Assembly: GCF_009914755.1 (NCBI RefSeq) | Contig: NC_060931.1 | DNA length: 64,000 nucleotides | Source: the human T2T-CHM13v2.0 reference genome, Homo sapiens | Reading direction: 5' to 3' (one strand) | In this document: positions 4,195 through 57,280 of the stretch, in pieces | Position numbering within the stretch: position 1 is the stretch's first letter | How the letters are laid out: every line of letters starts with the position of its first letter | Program-made: the position numbers and the translations under genes | The notes under the pieces: model-generated | Databases searched by the model: none | Seen by the model: only the letters and a program-made list of their open reading frames with translations | What the model was told of the DNA's origin: nothing

Positions 4195-4480
4195 TGGTGC
4201 TTTAAATAAATGTCCACAAATTGACTGATACTTTTCCATTCAAAAGGTGGAGTTTGATTATCTTCCTCTTGAGTGTTGGTTAGATGCAGTCATTTGCCCC
4301 TGCAGAATAGAATTTGATGAAAGTAGCCTGTGTAATTTCCCAGATAAGGTCATAAAAGGAATTGTCTTCCTACTTGCTCTCCTAGATTACTTCCTCTAGA
4401 GGAAGACAACTGCCATGTCATGAGAACACACACAGCTCTATAAGACCACATGGTGAGGAATGGAGGCCTCCTGCCAACAA

Positions 4481-4533
<53 letters not shown>

Positions 4534-4755
4534 TACCACCGTGGATGAGGATCCCCTAGCCCAAGCAAGCATTCGGATAACTGCAATTTCAGCGGACAAC
4601 TTGACTGCATTCCCATCAGAGACCCTGACTCAGAAACCCCGGAAAACTCCTTCCAGGTTCCTGACTCTCAGAGACCGTGTGAAATAAAAAGTGTTTGCAG
4701 TTTAAAGCTGTTTGGAGTGGGGGAAATTTGTTACACACCAATGGAAAACTAACAC
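4195..4755 (+). mobile_element. MLT1F-like MaLR LTR
   Basis: AGGTGGAG.., CCACATGGTGAGGAATGGAGGCCTCCTGCCAACAACC, GAGACCCTGA, AATAAAAAGTGTTTG, end AACTAACACA. Confidence 0.8.
4483..4535. repeat. (GT)n microsatellite inside the MLT1F-like LTR
   Basis: About 26 GT units with one AT interruption. Confidence 0.97.
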
Positions 4756-13935: not shown

Positions 13936-14295
13936 AGTTCTATTTCCATGCTCACTCTTCCACCTACAGAAATATGTTCTCCCATGATGTGTATTTCTAC
14001 TATTTTCCTGAAATATCTCTAGTTGACAAAGACTACCAAGCTCACTAAAATATCAATTATAACAGCAACAAAAAGCACTTCTAAGAACATCTTATTGACA
14101 ACTAAACAACTTAATAGTGCACAAATATTATTTCCTTCTGAAAACATCTTCTGTGCGTACAATTCTATTAAAATTACCTTTCATTCCTTCTGTTTTTGGT
14201 GATTTATTATACTTTCTAAATTGCTTTTTTCTTATAAAACAAGAATTAGCCTTTCAATTTCTCATTACTGCTACTTACTGATATTATTTTATGCA

Positions 14296-14403
14296 GTATA
14301 TATACACATCTATATATGTGTGTGCTTGTGTATTTATATATACATATGTGTGTGTGTATATATATATATACACACATATATATATACACATATATATATA
14401 CAC

Positions 14404-14438
<35 letters not shown>

Positions 14439-14450
14439 TATATATATATA
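14296..14450. repeat. Compound (TA/TG/CA) microsatellite replacing a FLAM tail
   Basis: Direct reading; abuts tttgagatagggg of the FLAM. Confidence 0.95.
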
Positions 14451-14562
14451 TTTGAGATAGGGGTCCTGCCGTGCTTCCCAGCTGGTCTTGAACTCCTAGG
14501 CTCAAACAATTCTCCTGCCTTAGCCTCCTAAGTAGCTGGGATTACAGGCATATGCTACCGTG
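14451..14562 (-). mobile_element. FLAM_A Alu monomer
   Basis: GCTGGTCTTGAACTCCTAGGCTCAAACAATTCTCCTGCCTTAGCCTCCTAAGTAGCTGGGATTACAGG. Confidence 0.8.
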
Positions 14563-25110: not shown

Positions 25111-25215
25111 GTGACTGTGTGCTTTTTTTTTTTTTATCACTTCTTCATGTAGCTACAATGCCATAATTCAATTTTCTACAAAGATAAAAGAAAACTAACA
25201 CAGTCTTTAGTCTGG

Positions 25216-25606
<391 letters not shown>

Positions 25607-46979: not shown

Positions 46980-49900
46980 TATATGTTGTTTTCAAACAAA
47001 TTCATTACTATAAATTTTCCTCTAAGCACTGCTTTTACTGCATTCGACATGTTTAGATAAGCTATATCTTCATTTTCTTTGTGTTTGAAATATTTTTTAA
47101 ATTTATTCTTGAGACTTCTTCTTTGACCCATATGTTATTTAGAAATTTGTTTATTAATTTCCAAGATAGGTTTTCCAGCTATTTTTGTTATTGATTTCTA
47201 GTTTTTTTGTTATGATCTGAGTATTTATTTTGTATGATTTCTATCTTTGTAAATTTGTTGTGTTTTATGTCCCAGAATATAGTCTATGTTGGTGAATGTT
47301 CCATGACAGCCTGAGAAGAATGTGTATTCTACTGTTGTTTGATGAAATAGTACATAAATATCAATTATATTCAGCTGATTGATGGTGCTGTTAAGTTCAA
47401 CTATATCCTTACTGATTTTCTGTCTGCTGGATCTTCCATTTCTGTAGAGGAGTGTTGAGGTCTCCAACAATGATACTGAAATCATTCTTCCTCTGAAGTC
47501 CGCTTTGTCTGTACTGAATATAGTTACTCCCACTTTCATTTTATTAGTGTCACTAGATATTTTTTCTTTATTTTTTCACTTTAAATCTATCTGTGTTTTT
47601 ATAAAGTGGGTTTATTGTAGACAATATAGAATTAAGTCTTTTTTTTCCTTTGGTTTTTTTTTTTTTTTCCATTCACTCTGACAAGTTCTGTTTTTCTGTT
47701 GGTAACAACTGATGTTTAGAGTAATTATTAATTTAGTTGGTTTACATCTCCCTTATTTGTTACTATTTTTTCTGTTTTCTATTTTTCGCTCTTGTTATTT
47801 TTTTGTTTTCCACTCTTTTCTTGCCTTCTCTAGTTTTAATTATTTTATATGATTCTATTTTTCTCCTCTCTTAGGATATCAATTATACTTATTTTAAAAT
47901 ATTTTTTATTGGTTGCTATGCCTTCGAACTACACATTTACAATTAATCCAAGTTTCATTTCACATAATGTTGTATCACTTCACCAGTCGTGAAAGTACCT
48001 TGGAATAGAGTATTCCTAATCTCTCTCTTGCATCCCCCTGTAACATTACGGTCATTTATTTCATTTTCCGTAAACTATCATTACTGAGAGTTTGAATACT
48101 ATTAAAACGAATGAGAATAGAAAAAGTAGACGATGCTATTTTACCCCACTTATTCCTTCTCTAATGCTCTTCCTTTCTTTATGTAAAACTGAATGTCTGA
48201 CCTATAGTCTTTTTCTTCTTTCTGAAGAATTTCTTACCACTTCTGTCAAGGTAGTTCTATTAGAAACAAAATTTCCTCATTTTTTTGCTTGTCTGGAAAA
48301 GTCTTTTTTCCTCTCTCACTTTTGAAGTATAATTTCACTGATACAAAATTCTAGATTGGTGAGTTTTTTTTTCCTTTTAGCATTTTAAACTTTTCACTCT
48401 ACTCTCATCTTGCTTGCGTGGTTTCTGAAGAGCAGGTCACTGCAATTTTTATCTCTGCTCCTGTATATGTAAGGTATTGTTTTCCTTTTTTATTTCCCTC
48501 CTCTGGTTTTCAAGATTTTGTCATTTTCTTTGATTTTCTGCAGTTTGAAAATTATATATCTATGTGTAAATTTTGTGGTATTTAGCCGGCTTTCTGTTCT
48601 CTGAAATTCCTGGATCTGTTGTTTCATATTTATCATTAATTTGGGGGAAATTCTCACTTATTATTACTTCAAATACTTTTTCTCTTCCTTTCTTCTCCTC
48701 CTTGTATTCTTCTTCTGCATACCTCACAGCTTTTGTGATTCTCCTTCATTCTTGAACATTTTGTCCTGCCATTTCATTCTTCTTTCTCTTTGCCTTTTTG
48801 TTTTGGAAGTTTCTATTGACATTACTTGGAGATCACTGATTCTTTCTTCTGCTGCGTACAGTCTTTTGATGAACATTATTAACATGTATTTGATTTCTGG
48901 TATTTCCTTTTTATTCTTTCTTAGAGTTTCAGGCACTCTTCTTACATTATCTATCTGTTTTTGCATGATTTTTGACTTTTAAAATTAGAGCCCTTAGCAT
49001 ATTTATCATAGTTGTTTTAAATTCTAGGACTAGTAATCCCAACATGTCTGTCATATCTGGGTCTGGTTTGGATGCTTACCTGTCTCTTCCAACTGATTTT
49101 GTCTTTTAGTATGCTTTGTAATTTCATGTTGCAAGCCAGAAGTGATATCCTGGGTAAAAGGAACTCAGTGAGGTAAACGGCCTGTTAGTGTGTGGTTTAT
49201 GTTTATCTGGTTTATTGCTTGCTGTAGCTGTAAGTATCAGGCTATGGTTTCCTGTGGTTTCTTTGTTTGTGCCTCCCCTGTTGTCTTTGGGATTTCCCAT
49301 TTTTTTTTCTTAAAAAGGACTAAGATGTGCAGTTCTCTAAGTTATATTCCCTTGTTACCCCATTGTATTACACCTGTGCCTCTGAACTGTGGCATTTGTA
49401 ACTGCTTCTCATTTCCCTAACCCCTTCCTAATTAAGAAGGAGAGGATGGAGGGAGTTAGAATTGGGTTCTACCTTCCCCTCACATGGAAGACTTAGACCT
49501 GGGTATTTTATTTCCCCCATGTGGAGGGCTACAAAGGGATGCAGTTGAATTTTTCCCCTTTTCAGGTCAGTAAGGCTGTAGTAAAAACTCAGCAGCACAG
49601 GTTTTGCAGAAACCCCCAGTACGTTTGACTCTGGTGGAATAGTTTCTGTAGAGGGCAGGCCTAGTTAAGAACAGAATGCTCTGGTTCTACTTCAAAATGG
49701 CTACTTTTGGAAAACTGGAAGCAAGAGAGGATTTTTCTTTGGTCTTTATTAAGAGAATCCTAGAGGTAAACCTCACAAAAATGTGAGGGCCCTCATGGAA
49801 TTGTTAACTTTCAAACTTATCCACCATGAACAGCTATCAAATTGTCAACTGTTATTTAGGTTTTCCTACCACACTACTAGTGATATAGGAGTTAAAAAGA

Positions 49901-50710
49901 AATTATTTAGGCAGTTAGTGAGGGTACAGGAGTCCTCGGTAAGGTTTTCCTTTTAATAAAAAGCAGTCCCAAAATCTTTTCTTTTCTAACAAAAAGCAGC
50001 CTGAAAAATCAAGCAGCAAGCACAGATAAACCAAGCTGGAGGCTTGCACAGGTGAATGCTGGCTGCTGTGCCAGGTGCCAGGAATATATCTAACATGGAG
50101 GATTTCTCTTCCCTTTTCTTTGTTGCCATGTGTGAGGGTGTCATGGCACCAGCCAGGTAGAGACACCATCTGCATAATAAAAGATTAGGGTAGGATGGCT
50201 AGCCTCTTCATGGGCTATGTAAATGGCACACCTGGTGCAACCAATCCCTGGGCCTTATGTAAATCAGACACCACCTCCTCAAGTCCCTCTATAAAACCAA
50301 CTGCATACTGTCACGAAAAGGGGAGATCTGACTGGAACTCCCCTCCCTCTACCTTGGGGAGCTTTTCTCTTGCTTCTTTCACCTATTAAACCTTCCGCTC
50401 TTAAACCCACACCTTGTGTGTCCTTGTCTTAGTTTTCCTTAGAGTGAGACAACAAACCTCGGGTATTTCCCCAGACAAATGACACAGCTTCACTAGTTCC
50501 TGCAGAGCTTTCTGCTCCAGTAAATTGTGATTCTCTGTACCCTCCTGTGTGTCTGTCCAGTTTGGGGAGCACCAGCTTCCTCTGTGACTTCAATTATCTG
50601 ATGGATCTGAAAAGTCATTGGTTTCTATTTTGTTATGCTTTTTTCCTGTGGGAACAGAAATGATGACTTCCAAGTTCCTCACATGCTGGCCCAGGAATTG
50701 GAGGTCCCCC
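46980..50710 (-). mobile_element. L1MD/L1MC-type 5' half (5' UTR, ORF1, ORF2 endonuclease region), interrupted by MER51
   Basis: ORF RQKISKDIVELNSTINQLNIIDIY..YTFFSGCHGTFTNIDYILGHK (L1 endonuclease); AEERISDLQ (ORF1p coiled coil). Confidence 0.85.
49881..50492 (+). mobile_element. MER51-family solo LTR (ERV1)
   Basis: TGATATAGGAGTTAAAAAGAAATTATTTAGGCAG..CCCCAGACAAATGACACAGCTTCA; perfect 4-bp TSD ctag at 49877-49880 and 50493-50496. Confidence 0.85.
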
Positions 50711-51021
50711 ATATGTTCTTGATTATTTCTTACCCTCCATTATTGATAGTACCTAGCATGGCAGAGTGGTGAGCTAAGCACCTGTCAACAATAGGTTAAC
50801 ACATCAAAGGAAGTAGACCTAGGGAGTGGCTTGTACTCAACAACAGATACAATAAGGCAGGTTCACACTGAATACCCAACTTTGTCACAACCACCATGTA
50901 TTTAACTACGGCTAATATTTTTCTGTATTTTATTTGTGAAAAATTGAGTAAAGTAGATTCAAATAAAAACCAGAAGTGTAAGATTCCCAAGATACCCTCT
51001 GGGCTCTTGCTCTTCATGCCT

Positions 51022-51566
51022 TGTATTAATCATGTTTTTTTTTTTTTAATTATACTTTGACACCTAAGGGGCTTTGGGATCTGGGGTGAAACTGCCTGTT
51101 TCAGCATGAGCTAATTCCTAGAGATAGTAATCAACTTAGTGCAGACCTTTCATATGCAAACCAACCAACCCTGACCCCATACCCTTCATCCTCCTCCTTT
51201 ATCTAACTCTCATACACCAAGCAGATATTCCCCCTGTCCTAAGTCACTCCAGAGCCACATGCCAGATAACGAGGGACGACCTCCATCACCCAGGGTTTGC
51301 CAAATTCCAAGCTTGTTCAGTTGCTCACTGTGCCTCATGGATTCCATTCCACAGAAACCACATGCTTATGTCCATGCTTCTCCCAGTTTCCTCTGCCCCT
51401 GGCCAAGGCTGGTACTTTCTTGTGTGGTCCTGCATGGATTGCCATGGTGTGTCCTCTCCTCTTGGAAACTATGAGTAATCAATTCTTCTTTTAATGGCTT
51501 TGACCCTTTTCTGTCTGTCACTTTACTGCTCCTGATTAAAACAAAACTCTGGTACATTTTGAAACA
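51022..51566 (+). mobile_element. MER74-like solo LTR (ERVL)
   Basis: TGTATTAATCATG..GCTAATTCCTAGAGATAG..CATATGCAAACCAACCAA..CA; perfect 5-bp TSD tgcct at 51017-51021 and 51567-51571. Confidence 0.8.
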
Positions 51567-51574
51567 TGCCTTTT

Positions 51575-52397
51575 TGTAACCGCCCAATGGGTTCGCCTTG
51601 CCCACTGCCTAGCCACACTACTAGTGATATAGGAGTTAAAAAGAAATTATTTAGGCAGTTAGTGAGGGTACAGGAGTCCTCGGTAAGGTTTTCCTTTTAA
51701 TAAAAAGCAGTCCCAAAATCTTTTCTTTCTAGCCAGAGCTGATTTATCGAGACAGGGGAATTGCAATGGAGAAAGAGTAATTCACACACAGCCAGCTGTG
51801 CAGGAAACCAGAATTTTATTATTACTCAAATCAGTCTGTCTGAGCATTTGGGGATAAGAGTTTTAAAAGATAATTTGGAAGGTAGGAGCTCAGGAAGTGG
51901 GGAGGACTGATCGGTCAGGTTGGAGATGGACTCACAGGTGGGGTAGAAGTGAGTTTTTGTTTGCTATTTTCTGTTCCCAGGTGGGATCACAGAACTGGTT
52001 GAGCCAGATAACAGGTCTGGGTGCAGGGTCTGCAAAATGTCTCAAGCACTAATATTAGGTTTTACAATAGTGATATTATCCCCAAGAACAATTTGAGAAG
52101 GTTCAGACTCTTGTAGCCAGAGGCTGCGTGACCCCTAAACTGTAATTTATAACCTTGTAGCCAATTTGTTACTTCTGCAAAGGCAAACTGCTCCCCGGGC
52201 AAGAAAGGGGTCTTTTTGGGAAAGGGCTATTATCAATTTTGTTTCAGAGCCATAAATTCCTTCCCAAGCTTAGTTTGGCCTCCTCCCAGGAATGAACAAG
52301 GACAGCTTAAAGGTTGGAAGCAAGATGGAGTCAGTTAGGTCTGGTCTCTTTCACTGTCATAATTTCCTCAGTTACAATTTTTGCAAAGATGGTTTCA
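51575..52397 (-). mobile_element. LTR8 solo LTR (ERV1) carrying a 120-bp templated insertion
   Basis: Reverse complement begins TGAAACCATCTTTGCAAAAATTGTAACTGAG; the other end reads TGTAACCGCCCAATGGGTTCGCCTTGCCC on the plus strand. Confidence 0.85.
51613..51728 (+). repeat. 116-bp exact dispersed duplicate of 49869-49984
   Basis: Identical base for base by direct comparison; flanked by duplicated ctagcca at 51609-51615 and 51729-51735. Confidence 0.97.
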
Positions 52398-52647
52398 TTT
52401 CCTTTGATGTAAAATGTCAAGACCTGCAAAACTTAACTTTTCTCTATACACAGTGCAGAAAAATACAATCTAAAGTGGTCATTGTTTAAGAAACTTTGGC
52501 CTTTTTTAGGGGGGAGTTGTTCTGTTTCATTCATTTTTAATGGCTAAACTTAGACTGTTAATGATTACTTCATAAAATAACATTAGCAGAAAACTAGCCA
52601 TTTCAACGTTTATCCACTTGACAGATACTAAATAATGAATAGCTTAG

Positions 52648-53380
52648 TTATTTAATTCAGCAAGTATCTATTTATTGCTATTTACTATTGAAGTAGCATT
52701 GTTGTCTGGGGTAAATACCCAAGACTTGTCGTCTCGTGTCAAGGAAATCGAGTATGTGGACAGAAGAAGTGAGTTTAGGAGTGGAGGTTTAATAAACAAA
52801 AGAAAGAGAAAGGATAGCAGCTCTGTCTTGCAAGAAAGAGGCGCTCCTGAATGGGACTTCCAGCCCACAGGAGAGTGCACCGGATTTTATAGACAGGCTT
52901 GAGGAGGTGGTGTCTGATTTACCTAGGGCCCACAGATTGGTTGGACCAGGTGTGACGTTTACGTAGCCCACAAGCAAGCTGATAGCCCCACCCTAATCTT
53001 ATTATGCAAATAGAGTCTTTTCCTGGCTGGTGTCGTGTTGCCTGCTCCTTACTGTACACTGGCTGGCAAAGAGAAGGGACGATGGAGCCACCATGTTGAA
53101 CATGCCTAATCCCAGGTAGCCTTTTCCTATTGGCATAGCTGCCGGCATTCACCCATGCAAGCTTCCAGCTTGCTTGCCTATGTCTGCAGCTCGATTTTAC
53201 AGGCCGCTCTTTGTTAGAAAAGAAAATGATTTTGGGGCTGCTGTTCATTAAATGGAAAACCTTACTGAGGACTTCCTTACCCTCACTATCTGCCTAATTT
53301 CTTCTTAACTCCTGTATCACTATGTTTGAGGTACTCTGTTAGGCACTGAGTAGTGAACAAAACAGATCCTGTCCTCATTC
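52648..53380 (-). mobile_element. L2 3' terminus split by MER51
   Basis: ATTCAGCAAGTATCTATTTATTG..CTAT | GTTTGAGGTACTCTGTTAGGCACTGAG..GTGAACAAAACAGA. Confidence 0.6.
52689..53319 (-). mobile_element. MER51A/B-type solo LTR (ERV1)
   Basis: Reverse complement begins TGATACAGGAGTTAAGAAGAAATT; perfect 4-bp TSD ctat at 52685-52688 and 53320-53323. Confidence 0.85.
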
Positions 53381-55410: not shown

Positions 55411-56023
55411 ACACTGCAGAGCCTCGGATGAGCTGACACAATAAGAGATGTTATTGAAAGCAATAACTCAATTGTTCAGATGAAAACTTGACTAGAACAT
55501 TATGGAGAAGAAGTCAATAGTAACTGACATTTTTAACAATGATTCTTGCAGGAAATTCTCTTCTACTTAAGTGTTTTGTTTTCAAAGTACAAGATTTGCC
55601 TTTCAGATTATGTTCAAGGTCTGAGCTGACAGGATCTTTGGCTTAGCAGGAAGAATTTCAGAAAAGAAATGTTCCTGTAACAAGACTTGAAAACAGAAAT
55701 TGGAGCTAGGAGGGCCCATTGATTCTGAGAAAGCCTGGGAAGCTCGGAACCCATGATACTGGATTGATTATCAATGTGAAAAGAGGGAAACACAGCCTAC
55801 CATTCTACAGATTAAGCATGATTTCTTCTAATCAGATGCTATCAACATTTCAAGTCCTCATTCAGCAAAAAATAGCAATAGGCTATAGGATAGCTTTCAA
55901 AACCATTAGCTAATAACTTTATTTTTAATTATCTCACCTACTGTTAATACATGGACCAAAGGATACATCTTTTCCTCAAGCTAAGTACTGTGATTTGCAT
56001 TTGACACACTTAGAAAAATTATT

Positions 56024-56320
56024 TATATTATATATAATATATATCTATAGATATATATTATATATAATATATATCTATAAATATATATTATATATAATAT
56101 ATATCTATAGATATATATTATATATAATATATCTATAGATATATTATATATAATATATATCTATAGATATATTATATATAATATATCTATAGATATATAT
56201 TATATATAATATATCTATAGATATATATTATATATAATATATCTATAAATATATATTATATATAATATATATCTACAAATATATATTATATATAATATAT
56301 ATCTATAAATATATATTATA
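56024..56320. repeat. Self-complementary AT-rich minisatellite, about 10 units of 26-30 bp
   Basis: Unit atatctatagatatatattatatataatat; its reverse complement is a rotation of itself. Confidence 0.95.
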
Positions 56321-56384
56321 CATAAGTAAAATATATACAAACATATGACAAATATAAATGATAAATATAAAATGTACATTTTAA

Positions 56385-56817
56385 ATATATATACACATAT
56401 ATATTGTGTGTATATATATACACACATATATGTATATACATATATACACACATATATGTATATACATATACACACACATATATGTATGTACGTATACACA
56501 CACATATATGTATGTACGTATATACACACATATATGTATGTACGTATATACACACATATATGTATGTACATATACACACATATATGTATGTACATATACA
56601 CACACATATATGCATATACATATATACACACATATATGCATATACATATATACACACATATGTATATACATATATACACACATATGTATATACATATATA
56701 CACACATATATATACATATATACACTTATATATGTATATACATATATATGTGTGTATATATATACACATATATACATATATATACACACATATATATATA
56801 CACATATATATATATAT
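56385..56817. repeat. Compound (TA/CA/TG) micro/minisatellite
   Basis: Higher-order units such as tatacacacatatatgtatgtacg. Confidence 0.95.
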
Positions 56818-56929
56818 GGACAAAGTCTTGCTATCTTGCCTAGGCTGTTCTCTAATTCCCAGCTTCAAGCAATCCTGCTTCAGCCTCCCAAAACATTGGG
56901 ATTACATGTGTGAGCCACAATGCCTGGCC
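56818..56929 (-). mobile_element. FLAM_C or AluJ left monomer
   Basis: GTCTTGCTATCTTGCCTAGGCTG..CAGCCTCCCAAAACATTGGGATTACA..CCTGGCC. Confidence 0.8.
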
Positions 56930-57280
56930 CCTGACACACGTATTTTCTGATCCAAAAGAGAAGCAGAGAGTAATTTGAGATGCTTCCCAATGATAATAAT
57001 AAACAGGAAGGGAAAATGCAAATAAGAAGAAATGCTATCTAGATCTTTCCACAAGCACAGTTTACTTAAGTCATTATCTTTTAGAAGAATGTTTATTTTG
57101 GCAACTAGAATTGAGGTCTCAACTCTGGTTTGCCTGTGCCTAGGATGCAAGCAGACGTTGCTGAAGCAGTTCCCTTTCTGCGGAGCCTGCTGACAAAGCT
57201 TCCACTAAACATAGACAACTACCTGAAAACAGGCCCTTGCCAACACTGCAGGACTCTCAAAACAGACATACTTTGTGGCC

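What the first reader, a model, noticed from the sequence alone, without database searches (positions are those of the whole stretch)
51609..51735. Recent 116-bp templated insertion copied from 1744 bp upstream into an LTR8
Seen: 51613-51728 is 100% identical to 49869-49984. The copied stretch includes 12 bp of flanking L1 DNA (ccacactactag, containing the MER51's own ctag TSD) plus the first 104 bp of the MER51 LTR. It therefore comes from this genomic locus and is not an independent retroviral insertion; it has no poly-A. It splits LTR8 at tgc-ctagcca-gagctg and duplicates ctagcca (7 bp; net insert 120 bp). Junction microhomology: donor cctacca vs acceptor cctagcca at entry, and tttcta on both at exit. 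Inference: local template switching or synthesis-dependent repair (FoSTeS/MMBIR or Pol-theta-type templated insertion). Zero divergence within LTRs that are otherwise visibly decayed implies a very young, possibly lineage-specific or polymorphic event, producing a chimeric LTR8/MER51 element.
Basis: partly seen in the sequence, partly recalled or inferred. Interest (0 to 1): 0.8.

Follow-up and report, generated by a model that had tools for sequence, protein, structure and literature searches.

The report
Local 116-bp templated insertion in an LTR
A 116-base stretch lying 1.7 kb upstream was copied and pasted into an old retroviral LTR by a DNA copying or repair slip, a real but ordinary kind of mutation whose age cannot be fixed without other genomes.

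Summary
Window 51613-51728 is a 116/116 exact direct copy of 49869-49984. It is the only exact dispersed repeat longer than 34 nt in 171 kb scanned.

The copy is local. It carries 12 nt of unique flank plus the first 104 nt of a MER51-like LTR (49881-50493). Other genomic copies of that LTR part are at most 93% identical.

It interrupts an LTR8-like solo LTR (51575-~52398) at LTR positions 35-41. Paralogous copies read straight through that site. CTAGCCA flanks the insert on both sides, so 4-7 bp are duplicated and the net gain is 120 bp.

- **Left junction:** microhomeology CCTA(G)CCA, null P about 2e-4.
- **Right junction:** no exact microhomology.
- **Not retrotransposition:** no poly-A and no L1 endonuclease site.

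Best reading is a DNA-templated out-and-back template switch of the MMBIR/FoSTeS type, a miniature "cycle of templated insertion". This is a known class in the human germline (PMC8421209).

"Very young or polymorphic" is not shown. Zero differences in 116 bp allow up to 11-26 Myr. No primate or pangenome data were available. Interest is low to moderate.

The parts
49869..49984 (+). Donor (template) segment: 12 nt of flank plus the first 104 nt of LTR_A
   Evidence: 116/116 identical to 51613-51728. It is contiguous with its own flank and with the rest of LTR_A.
49881..50493 (+). LTR_A, a MER51-like solo LTR (family name not verified). It has TG...CA ends and a 4-bp target duplication ctag at 49877-49880 and 50494-50497.
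   Evidence: 35 of 43 non-self genomic matches start at window 49875-49883, and most end at 50473-50500, at 73-83% identity. Ends and ctag were read. The flanks are collinear in an older repeat in 4 of 9 loci.
51575..52398 (+). LTR_B, an LTR8-like solo LTR (family name not verified). This is the acceptor, interrupted at its positions 35-41.
   Evidence: 9 of 9 paralogous loci match both sides of the insert. The family start TGTAACC follows differing upstream bases in 7 of 7 printed copies.
51609..51615 (+). Left copy of CTAGCCA. CTAG is from the acceptor; CCA is ambiguous between acceptor and donor (microhomology).
51613..51728 (+). Inserted copy of the donor segment
   Evidence: 116/116 identity. 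It is absent from the paralogous LTR copies examined.
51729..51735 (+). Right copy of CTAGCCA, native acceptor sequence that continues into LTR_B
   Evidence: In 7 of 9 loci the two flank alignments overlap by exactly these 7 nt in subject coordinates.
52885..53319 (-). LTR_C, a second MER51-like LTR in inverted orientation. It is not the donor.
   Evidence: 75% identical to LTR_A over 445 columns. Its first ~104 nt are 85% identical to the insert.

Best explanation
A single DNA-templated copy-and-paste event of the microhomology-mediated template-switch type (FoSTeS/MMBIR, 'MMB-TI'). A growing 3' end inside LTR_B, ending ...TGCCTAGCCA, left its template. [quoted passage not shown] It then returned to the original template 4-7 nt behind the point it had left, so CTAG(CCA) was copied twice. 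The mirror-image order on the other strand gives the same product. Shown: the copy, its local origin, its direction (donor to acceptor), the uninterrupted state of the paralogs, the junction sequences and the significance of the left junction. Inferred: that one replicative event made it, which polymerase or lesion was involved, and when it happened. It most likely has no function, since no gene or functional element is annotated in the window.
For: 1. The exact 116-nt copy includes 12 nt of unique flank. 2. The paralogous LTR copies are uninterrupted at the site. In 7 of 9 loci the two flank alignments overlap by exactly 7 nt. In the other 2 of 9 the alignments are trimmed but collinear, with no extra DNA. 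All 7 of 7 printed copies read ...CTGCCTA..CAGAGC... straight through. 3. The left junction has 3 exact plus 4 further matching bases across one bulged G. Only 37 of 200,000 random donor positions did as well (1.85e-4, fixed register). 4. Re-copying of a short host segment is what defines 'cycles' of templated insertion (PMC7025897, passages read). A plain blunt two-ended break cannot leave the same 4-7 nt on both sides. 5. Germline templated insertions with nearby templates exist at about 100 per person at 25 bp or longer, including direct-orientation copies. Microhomeology with one gap or mismatch is typical of them (PMC8421209, section 10 part 1 and section 15). 6. There is no poly-A at either end of the insert on either strand. 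The target gc|ctagcca|ga has no T-rich/A L1 endonuclease motif.
Against: The right junction has no exact microhomology. CTA matches only after a 1-nt gap in a T run, which 12% of random positions also achieve. The return step is therefore either unprimed or involved a slip. No hairpin or other fold stands out at any of the four breakpoint regions to explain a stall (z from -0.58 to +1.41). Sequence alone cannot separate a fork-based switch from one-ended break repair or from repair of a staggered break. No empty allele at the orthologous locus was seen. Only paralogs were compared.
Confidence: 0.68

Rival explanations
1. Two-ended double-strand break with staggered ends (nicks about 4-7 nt apart) in LTR_B. 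It was repaired by end joining, with one end extended on the upstream template (synthesis-dependent, Pol-theta-type or NHEJ polymerase) before ligation. The duplication then comes from retaining both overhangs.
For: It gives the same product. The left-junction microhomeology suits annealing-primed synthesis. A right junction without microhomology suits end joining. PMC8421209 section 15 names Pol theta as a candidate for some such events.
Against: It needs a special staggered break to explain CTAG(CCA) on both sides. [quoted passage not shown] Here 113-116 nt were copied from 1.7 kb away.
Confidence: 0.15
2. Two separate events. First a 1,744-bp tandem duplication of 49869-51612. Later a ~1,624-bp deletion inside the second copy, leaving only its first 116 nt.
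For: The left junction is exactly a tandem-duplication junction: the end of the unit ...TGCCTAG joined to its start CCACAC..., with CCA microhomology. The arithmetic fits the coordinates.
Against: It needs two rare events where one suffices. The deletion would have to end precisely so as to restore the LTR_B reading from CTAG onward. No remnant of the rest of the second copy is present (one search finds no further self-matches).
Confidence: 0.07
3. RNA-templated repair. A read-through transcript crossing the flank/LTR_A boundary was reverse-transcribed into a break in LTR_B (endonuclease-independent L1 ORF2p or another reverse-transcribing polymerase).
For: The product cannot be told apart from a DNA-templated copy by sequence, since the segment has no intron. 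Nothing positive was found.
Against: There is no poly-A, no L1 endonuclease target and no 3' end signal at the copy's end. The nearness (1.7 kb) and same orientation are what a template in cis predicts.
Confidence: 0.05
4. Not a germline variant of the species. It is either an assembly or polishing artefact, or a mutation private to the sequenced cell line.
For: Only one assembly was seen, so it cannot be excluded here.
Against: The junctions have the ordered anatomy of a biological event: a microhomeology-primed entry, a clean duplication and an intact continuation of LTR_B. The two copies lie 1.7 kb apart in unique context. That is not the kind of place where assemblers invent 120 bp.
Confidence: 0.04

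Closest known systems
Germline MMB-TI (templated insertions linked to MMBIR), Osia et al. 2021, PMC8421209
   Same: The inserted sequence has an identifiable nearby template. The junction microhomology extends once a gap is allowed ('microhomeology'). Such events are found as germline variants, and a direct-orientation class exists.
   Different: That survey was read-based, with thresholds of 10 bp or more and 25 bp or more. I did not see its template-distance limits. Its 'direct duplication' class was tied to quasi-palindromes, and none stands out here. This insert is 113-116 nt, copied from 1.7 kb away.
'Cycles of templated insertion' in cancer genomes, PCAWG, PMC7025897
   Same: A copied template is strung into a host site, and the path returns to the host and re-replicates a host segment (definition read). 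Here there is one template and 4-7 nt are re-copied.
   Different: PCAWG events are somatic, detected as copy-number segments, usually involve distant or other-chromosome templates, and are far larger. Here everything lies within 2 kb in a reference genome.
FoSTeS/MMBIR complex rearrangements of genomic disorders (recalled; not read here beyond search listings)
   Same: Template switch primed by a few bases of homology, with insertion of nearby sequence at a breakpoint.
   Different: Those are usually kb-to-Mb copy-number changes. This is a 120-bp neutral insertion with no other rearrangement.
L1-mediated (TPRT) insertion of a cellular sequence
   Same: A short duplication flanks the insert, and the inserted sequence is a copy of a sequence elsewhere.
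   Different: There is no poly-A, no T-rich/A endonuclease site and no 3' end processing. This is not a member.

Membership tests
Microhomology-mediated templated insertion (MMBIR/FoSTeS, MMB-TI) | The inserted sequence has an identifiable template elsewhere in the genome, here nearby | tested here: met
   116/116 identity to 49869-49984, including 12 nt of unique flank. The next-best genomic copies are at most 93% identical.
Microhomology-mediated templated insertion (MMBIR/FoSTeS, MMB-TI) | Microhomology or microhomeology at the switch junctions | tested here: inconclusive
   Left junction: 3 exact plus 4 after one gap, null 1.85e-4. Right junction: 0 exact, 3 after a 1-nt gap, null 0.12. 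One junction meets the feature and the other does not clearly meet it.
Microhomology-mediated templated insertion (MMBIR/FoSTeS, MMB-TI) | An empty (pre-insertion) allele exists at the same locus | not testable with these tools
   Only paralogous LTR copies could be compared. No other primate or human assembly is held.
Microhomology-mediated templated insertion (MMBIR/FoSTeS, MMB-TI) | Arises by replicative or break-induced synthesis with a low-fidelity polymerase | not testable with these tools
   This is inferred only. The 1-nt T discrepancy at the exit would fit, but it is not evidence.
Cycle of templated insertion (PCAWG definition) | The string of copied segments returns to the host chromosome and re-replicates a host segment | tested here: met
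   CTAG(CCA) is present on both sides of the insert and once in the paralogs. The definition was read. Scale and tissue differ.
L1 target-primed reverse transcription insertion | Poly-A tail at the 3' end of the insert | tested here: not met
   On the + strand the insert ends ...aaaatcttttcttt. On the - strand it ends at the complement of ccacactactag.
L1 target-primed reverse transcription insertion | Target site resembling the L1 endonuclease motif (T-rich/A; motif recalled) | tested here: not met
   The target is gc|ctagcca|gagc on the + strand, with its complement on the - strand.
   LTR_A: TG at 49881, CA at 50492-50493, ctag on both sides, at least 43 genomic matches. LTR_B: starts TGTAACC in 7 of 7 printed copies. 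Its own target duplication is not clean (tttt before, tttc after).
   No repeat library is held. PMC5753468 (passages) only lists LTR8 under HUERS-P1 and MER51A-E under HERV4_I/MER51-int.

The most novel reading that the evidence does not exclude
The insert was made from RNA. A read-through transcript across the old-repeat/LTR_A boundary was reverse-transcribed into a break in LTR_B without L1 endonuclease. That would make this a natural germline example of local RNA-templated break repair in humans. A milder variant: the event is human-specific or still polymorphic, so both alleles exist and the switch can be studied directly.
Probability: 0.05. Interest if true: 0.55.

Novelty: new member of a known kind. 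Interest (0 to 1): 0.25.

Why it matters
This is a clean, fully resolved natural example of a single-template, out-and-back templated insertion in a human genome. It has an unambiguous donor 1.7 kb away, a statistically supported microhomeology at one junction and a short re-copied host segment. Such cases help calibrate how often, and over what distances, template switching shapes neutral DNA. If it proves polymorphic, it would be a simple 120-bp marker. It touches no annotated gene or functional element, and the class is already described. Its value is illustrative, not conceptual.

Tried and rejected
1. Earlier findings of the scan were not open.

I dropped it. Instead I scanned only what was already held: 171 kb, direct repeats only, with loci centred on LTRs and so not a fair sample.

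3. A test that the donor flank is L1 gave no support. Of 18 stop-to-stop ORFs from 47225-51605, 0 matched a Pfam family above cut-off. One chance-level hit appeared (YrvL, 17.2 bits against a cut-off of 27). The flank is an old multi-copy repeat (39 non-self matches at 67-86%), but 'L1' stays unverified.

4. Secondary structure at the four breakpoint regions shows nothing unusual.

5. LTR_C is rejected as the alternative donor, at 85% identity.

6. L1-mediated insertion is rejected (no poly-A, no endonuclease site).

7. An independent retroviral integration is rejected, because the unique flank is included and only 104 nt of LTR are present.

8. I did not estimate the donor's private substitutions against a family consensus. 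I made no consensus of proviral sequence, so only pairwise identities were used.

Full report
**Observation**

A gapped alignment extends the match to 121 columns with one gap (51608-51728 vs 49865-49984).

This is not a chance match or an ordinary repeat pair. Among the 14 direct-repeat families in the window, it is the only 100% family that is not a simple or tandem array. In 171,409 bases (the window plus 33 other loci of ~3 kb), 5 exact dispersed direct repeats of at least 30 nt exist, and the other four are 30-34 nt. That scan covered direct repeats only, and the extra loci are centred on LTRs, so it is a rough base rate.

**Anatomy of the donor**

A search of the window's own genome with 49700-50500 gave 43 non-self matches at 73-86% identity; 40 of 1663 candidates were scored. 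Of these, 35 of 43 begin at window 49875-49883, the other 8 begin further inside, and none reaches upstream of 49875.

The element therefore starts at 49881 (TG...) and ends at 50493 (...CA). The 4-bp duplication ctag lies at 49877-49880 and 50494-50497.

The DNA on both sides belongs to one older multi-copy repeat. In 4 of 9 fetched loci the two flanks match collinearly on one strand, with no LTR between them.

The 12 nt ccacactactag at the head of the copied stretch are thus locus-specific flank. I call this element LTR_A.

**Anatomy of the acceptor**

The genome search with 51480-51612, followed by BLAST of 51000-52400 against the nine fetched paralogs, shows an LTR family running from 51575 (TGTAACC...) to about 52398.

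In 7 of 9 paralogs the alignment to the left flank and the alignment to the right flank overlap by exactly 7 nt in the paralog's coordinates. In the other 2 of 9 (L004, L005) the alignments are trimmed by mismatches but remain collinear, with only 2-3 unaligned bases and no extra DNA.

The 7 of 9 paralogs that carried the anchor used for printing all read ...CCCACTGCCTA(G)(A)CAGAGC... without interruption. L007 and L010 lacked the exact anchor and were not printed.

The window's LTR (LTR_B, 'LTR8-like') is therefore split at its positions 35-41. CTAGCCA is present at 51609-51615 and again at 51729-51735, and the net gain is 120 bp. Because the donor stretch itself starts with CCA, the duplicated host segment is 4 to 7 bp.

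**Direction and local origin**

The upstream copy is continuous with its flank and with the rest of LTR_A. The downstream copy is foreign to LTR_B.

Of 40 scored genomic matches to 51595-51745, only the site itself (100%) and the donor (99% over the gapped 121 columns) are near-identical. The other 38 are 88-93% identical and begin at or near the LTR start, without the flank.

A second MER51-like LTR in the window (LTR_C, 52885-53319, minus strand) is 85% identical to the insert and is not the donor.

**Junctions**

- **Left junction.** The acceptor reads ...TGCCTAGCCA and the donor ...TTCCTA-CCA. That is 3 exact bases plus 4 more across one bulged G. With the acceptor fixed and 200,000 random donor positions within ±10 kb, 1.3% gave at least 3 exact bases and 0.0185% gave this pattern or better. 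That figure is for a fixed register. Allowing the usual sliding of a junction would raise it about four-fold by my own estimate.
- **Right junction.** The copy ends ...cttttcttt. The donor continues TCTAA and the acceptor CTAGCC. There is no exact microhomology, only CTA after a 1-nt gap in the T run, which 12% of random positions match.
- **No retrotransposition marks.** There is no poly-A at either end on either strand, and the target has no T-rich/A motif.
- **No unusual folding.** None of the four breakpoint regions folds unusually as single-stranded DNA (z 0.57, -0.58, 1.41, -0.28).

**Mechanism**

The simplest account is a single out-and-back template switch. A 3' end ending ...CCTAGCCA anneals to the complement of CCTACCA 1.7 kb upstream. 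It copies 113-116 nt, then resumes on its original template 4-7 nt behind its departure point, so CTAG(CCA) is made twice. The reverse order on the other strand gives the same product.

The re-copied host segment is the feature that PCAWG uses to define 'cycles' of templated insertion, as against 'bridges', which leave a gap (PMC7025897, passages read). A blunt two-ended break cannot produce it.

Germline templated insertions with nearby templates, often with junction homology that extends once one gap or mismatch is allowed, number about 100 per person at 25 bp or longer (PMC8421209, section 10 part 1 of 2 and section 15 read). Among 1,870 de novo structural variants in a large trio cohort, 6 were classed as simple templated insertions (PMC12583596, passages).

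I put 0.68 on this reading. The rivals are:
- a staggered two-ended break repaired with templated synthesis (0.15);
- a 1,744-bp tandem duplication followed by a ~1,624-bp deletion (0.07). This gives the same junctions and is the same path taken in two steps;
- RNA-templated repair (0.05);
- an artefact or a change private to the cell line (0.04).

**Age**

I assumed rates of 0.5-1.0e-9 per site per year, with the single CpG counted at 1x or 10x. On that basis the 95% upper bound is 11-26 Myr and the median is 2.6-6.0 Myr.

Under a flat prior, the posterior is 0.06-0.13 for under 0.5 Myr, 0.53-0.82 for under 6.5 Myr, and at least 0.97 for under 29 Myr. The rates and split dates are recalled, not computed.

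The event is late in the life of both LTRs, whose copies differ from one another by roughly 15-35%. It probably postdates the ape/Old World monkey split. Whether it is human-specific is close to an even bet, and polymorphism is not indicated. No other primate or human assembly is held, so the orthologous empty site was not seen.

**Comparison and novelty**

This is a new instance of a known kind of mutation (germline templated insertion by template switching). It is unusually clean because the donor carries a unique flank. It is not an L1-mediated insertion, since two defining features were tested and not met. It lies in a gene-poor stretch with no annotated gene or functional element in the window (hub annotation), so no function is proposed.

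On print status, four literature searches found papers on the general class and on the two LTR names. None of the four queried this locus or its coordinates, so I make no claim about whether this particular insertion is catalogued. I did not open any paper's supplementary tables.

**Not done**

Noticed in passing
window 49881-50296 (+) and 52885-53319 (-): LTR_A and a second MER51-like LTR form an inverted pair, 75% identical over 445 columns with arms about 2.6 kb apart. The insertion site lies between the arms. Whether this inverted pair favours fork stalling here is speculation.
   Followed up: partly
window 49951-49974 and 49984-50007: LTR_A contains an internal 33-nt-spaced imperfect direct repeat (24 nt, 79%). 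The copied stretch ends exactly where the second unit begins (49984).
   Followed up: no
window 55963-56932: A large AT-rich tandem array with nested periods of about 26-30 nt and 8-10 nt (families D1 and D4). It coincides with the masked block 56007-56932.
   Followed up: no
window 4464-4559; 14267-14463; 25193-25351: (TG)n and mixed TA/TG microsatellite blocks.
   Followed up: no
window 51571-51574 and 52398-52401: LTR_B has no clean target-site duplication (tttt before, tttc after). It has either decayed or the 3' end is a base or two away from 52397.
   Followed up: no
L004:2536-2565 and 2725-2754: A 30-nt exact direct repeat 189 bp apart next to another LTR8-like copy on another chromosome. 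It may be a smaller event of the same kind or a chance match.
   Followed up: no
window 51575-51612: The first ~38 nt of the LTR8-like family are much better conserved among genomic copies (89-100% in 39 scored matches) than the rest of the LTR (66-86%).
   Followed up: no
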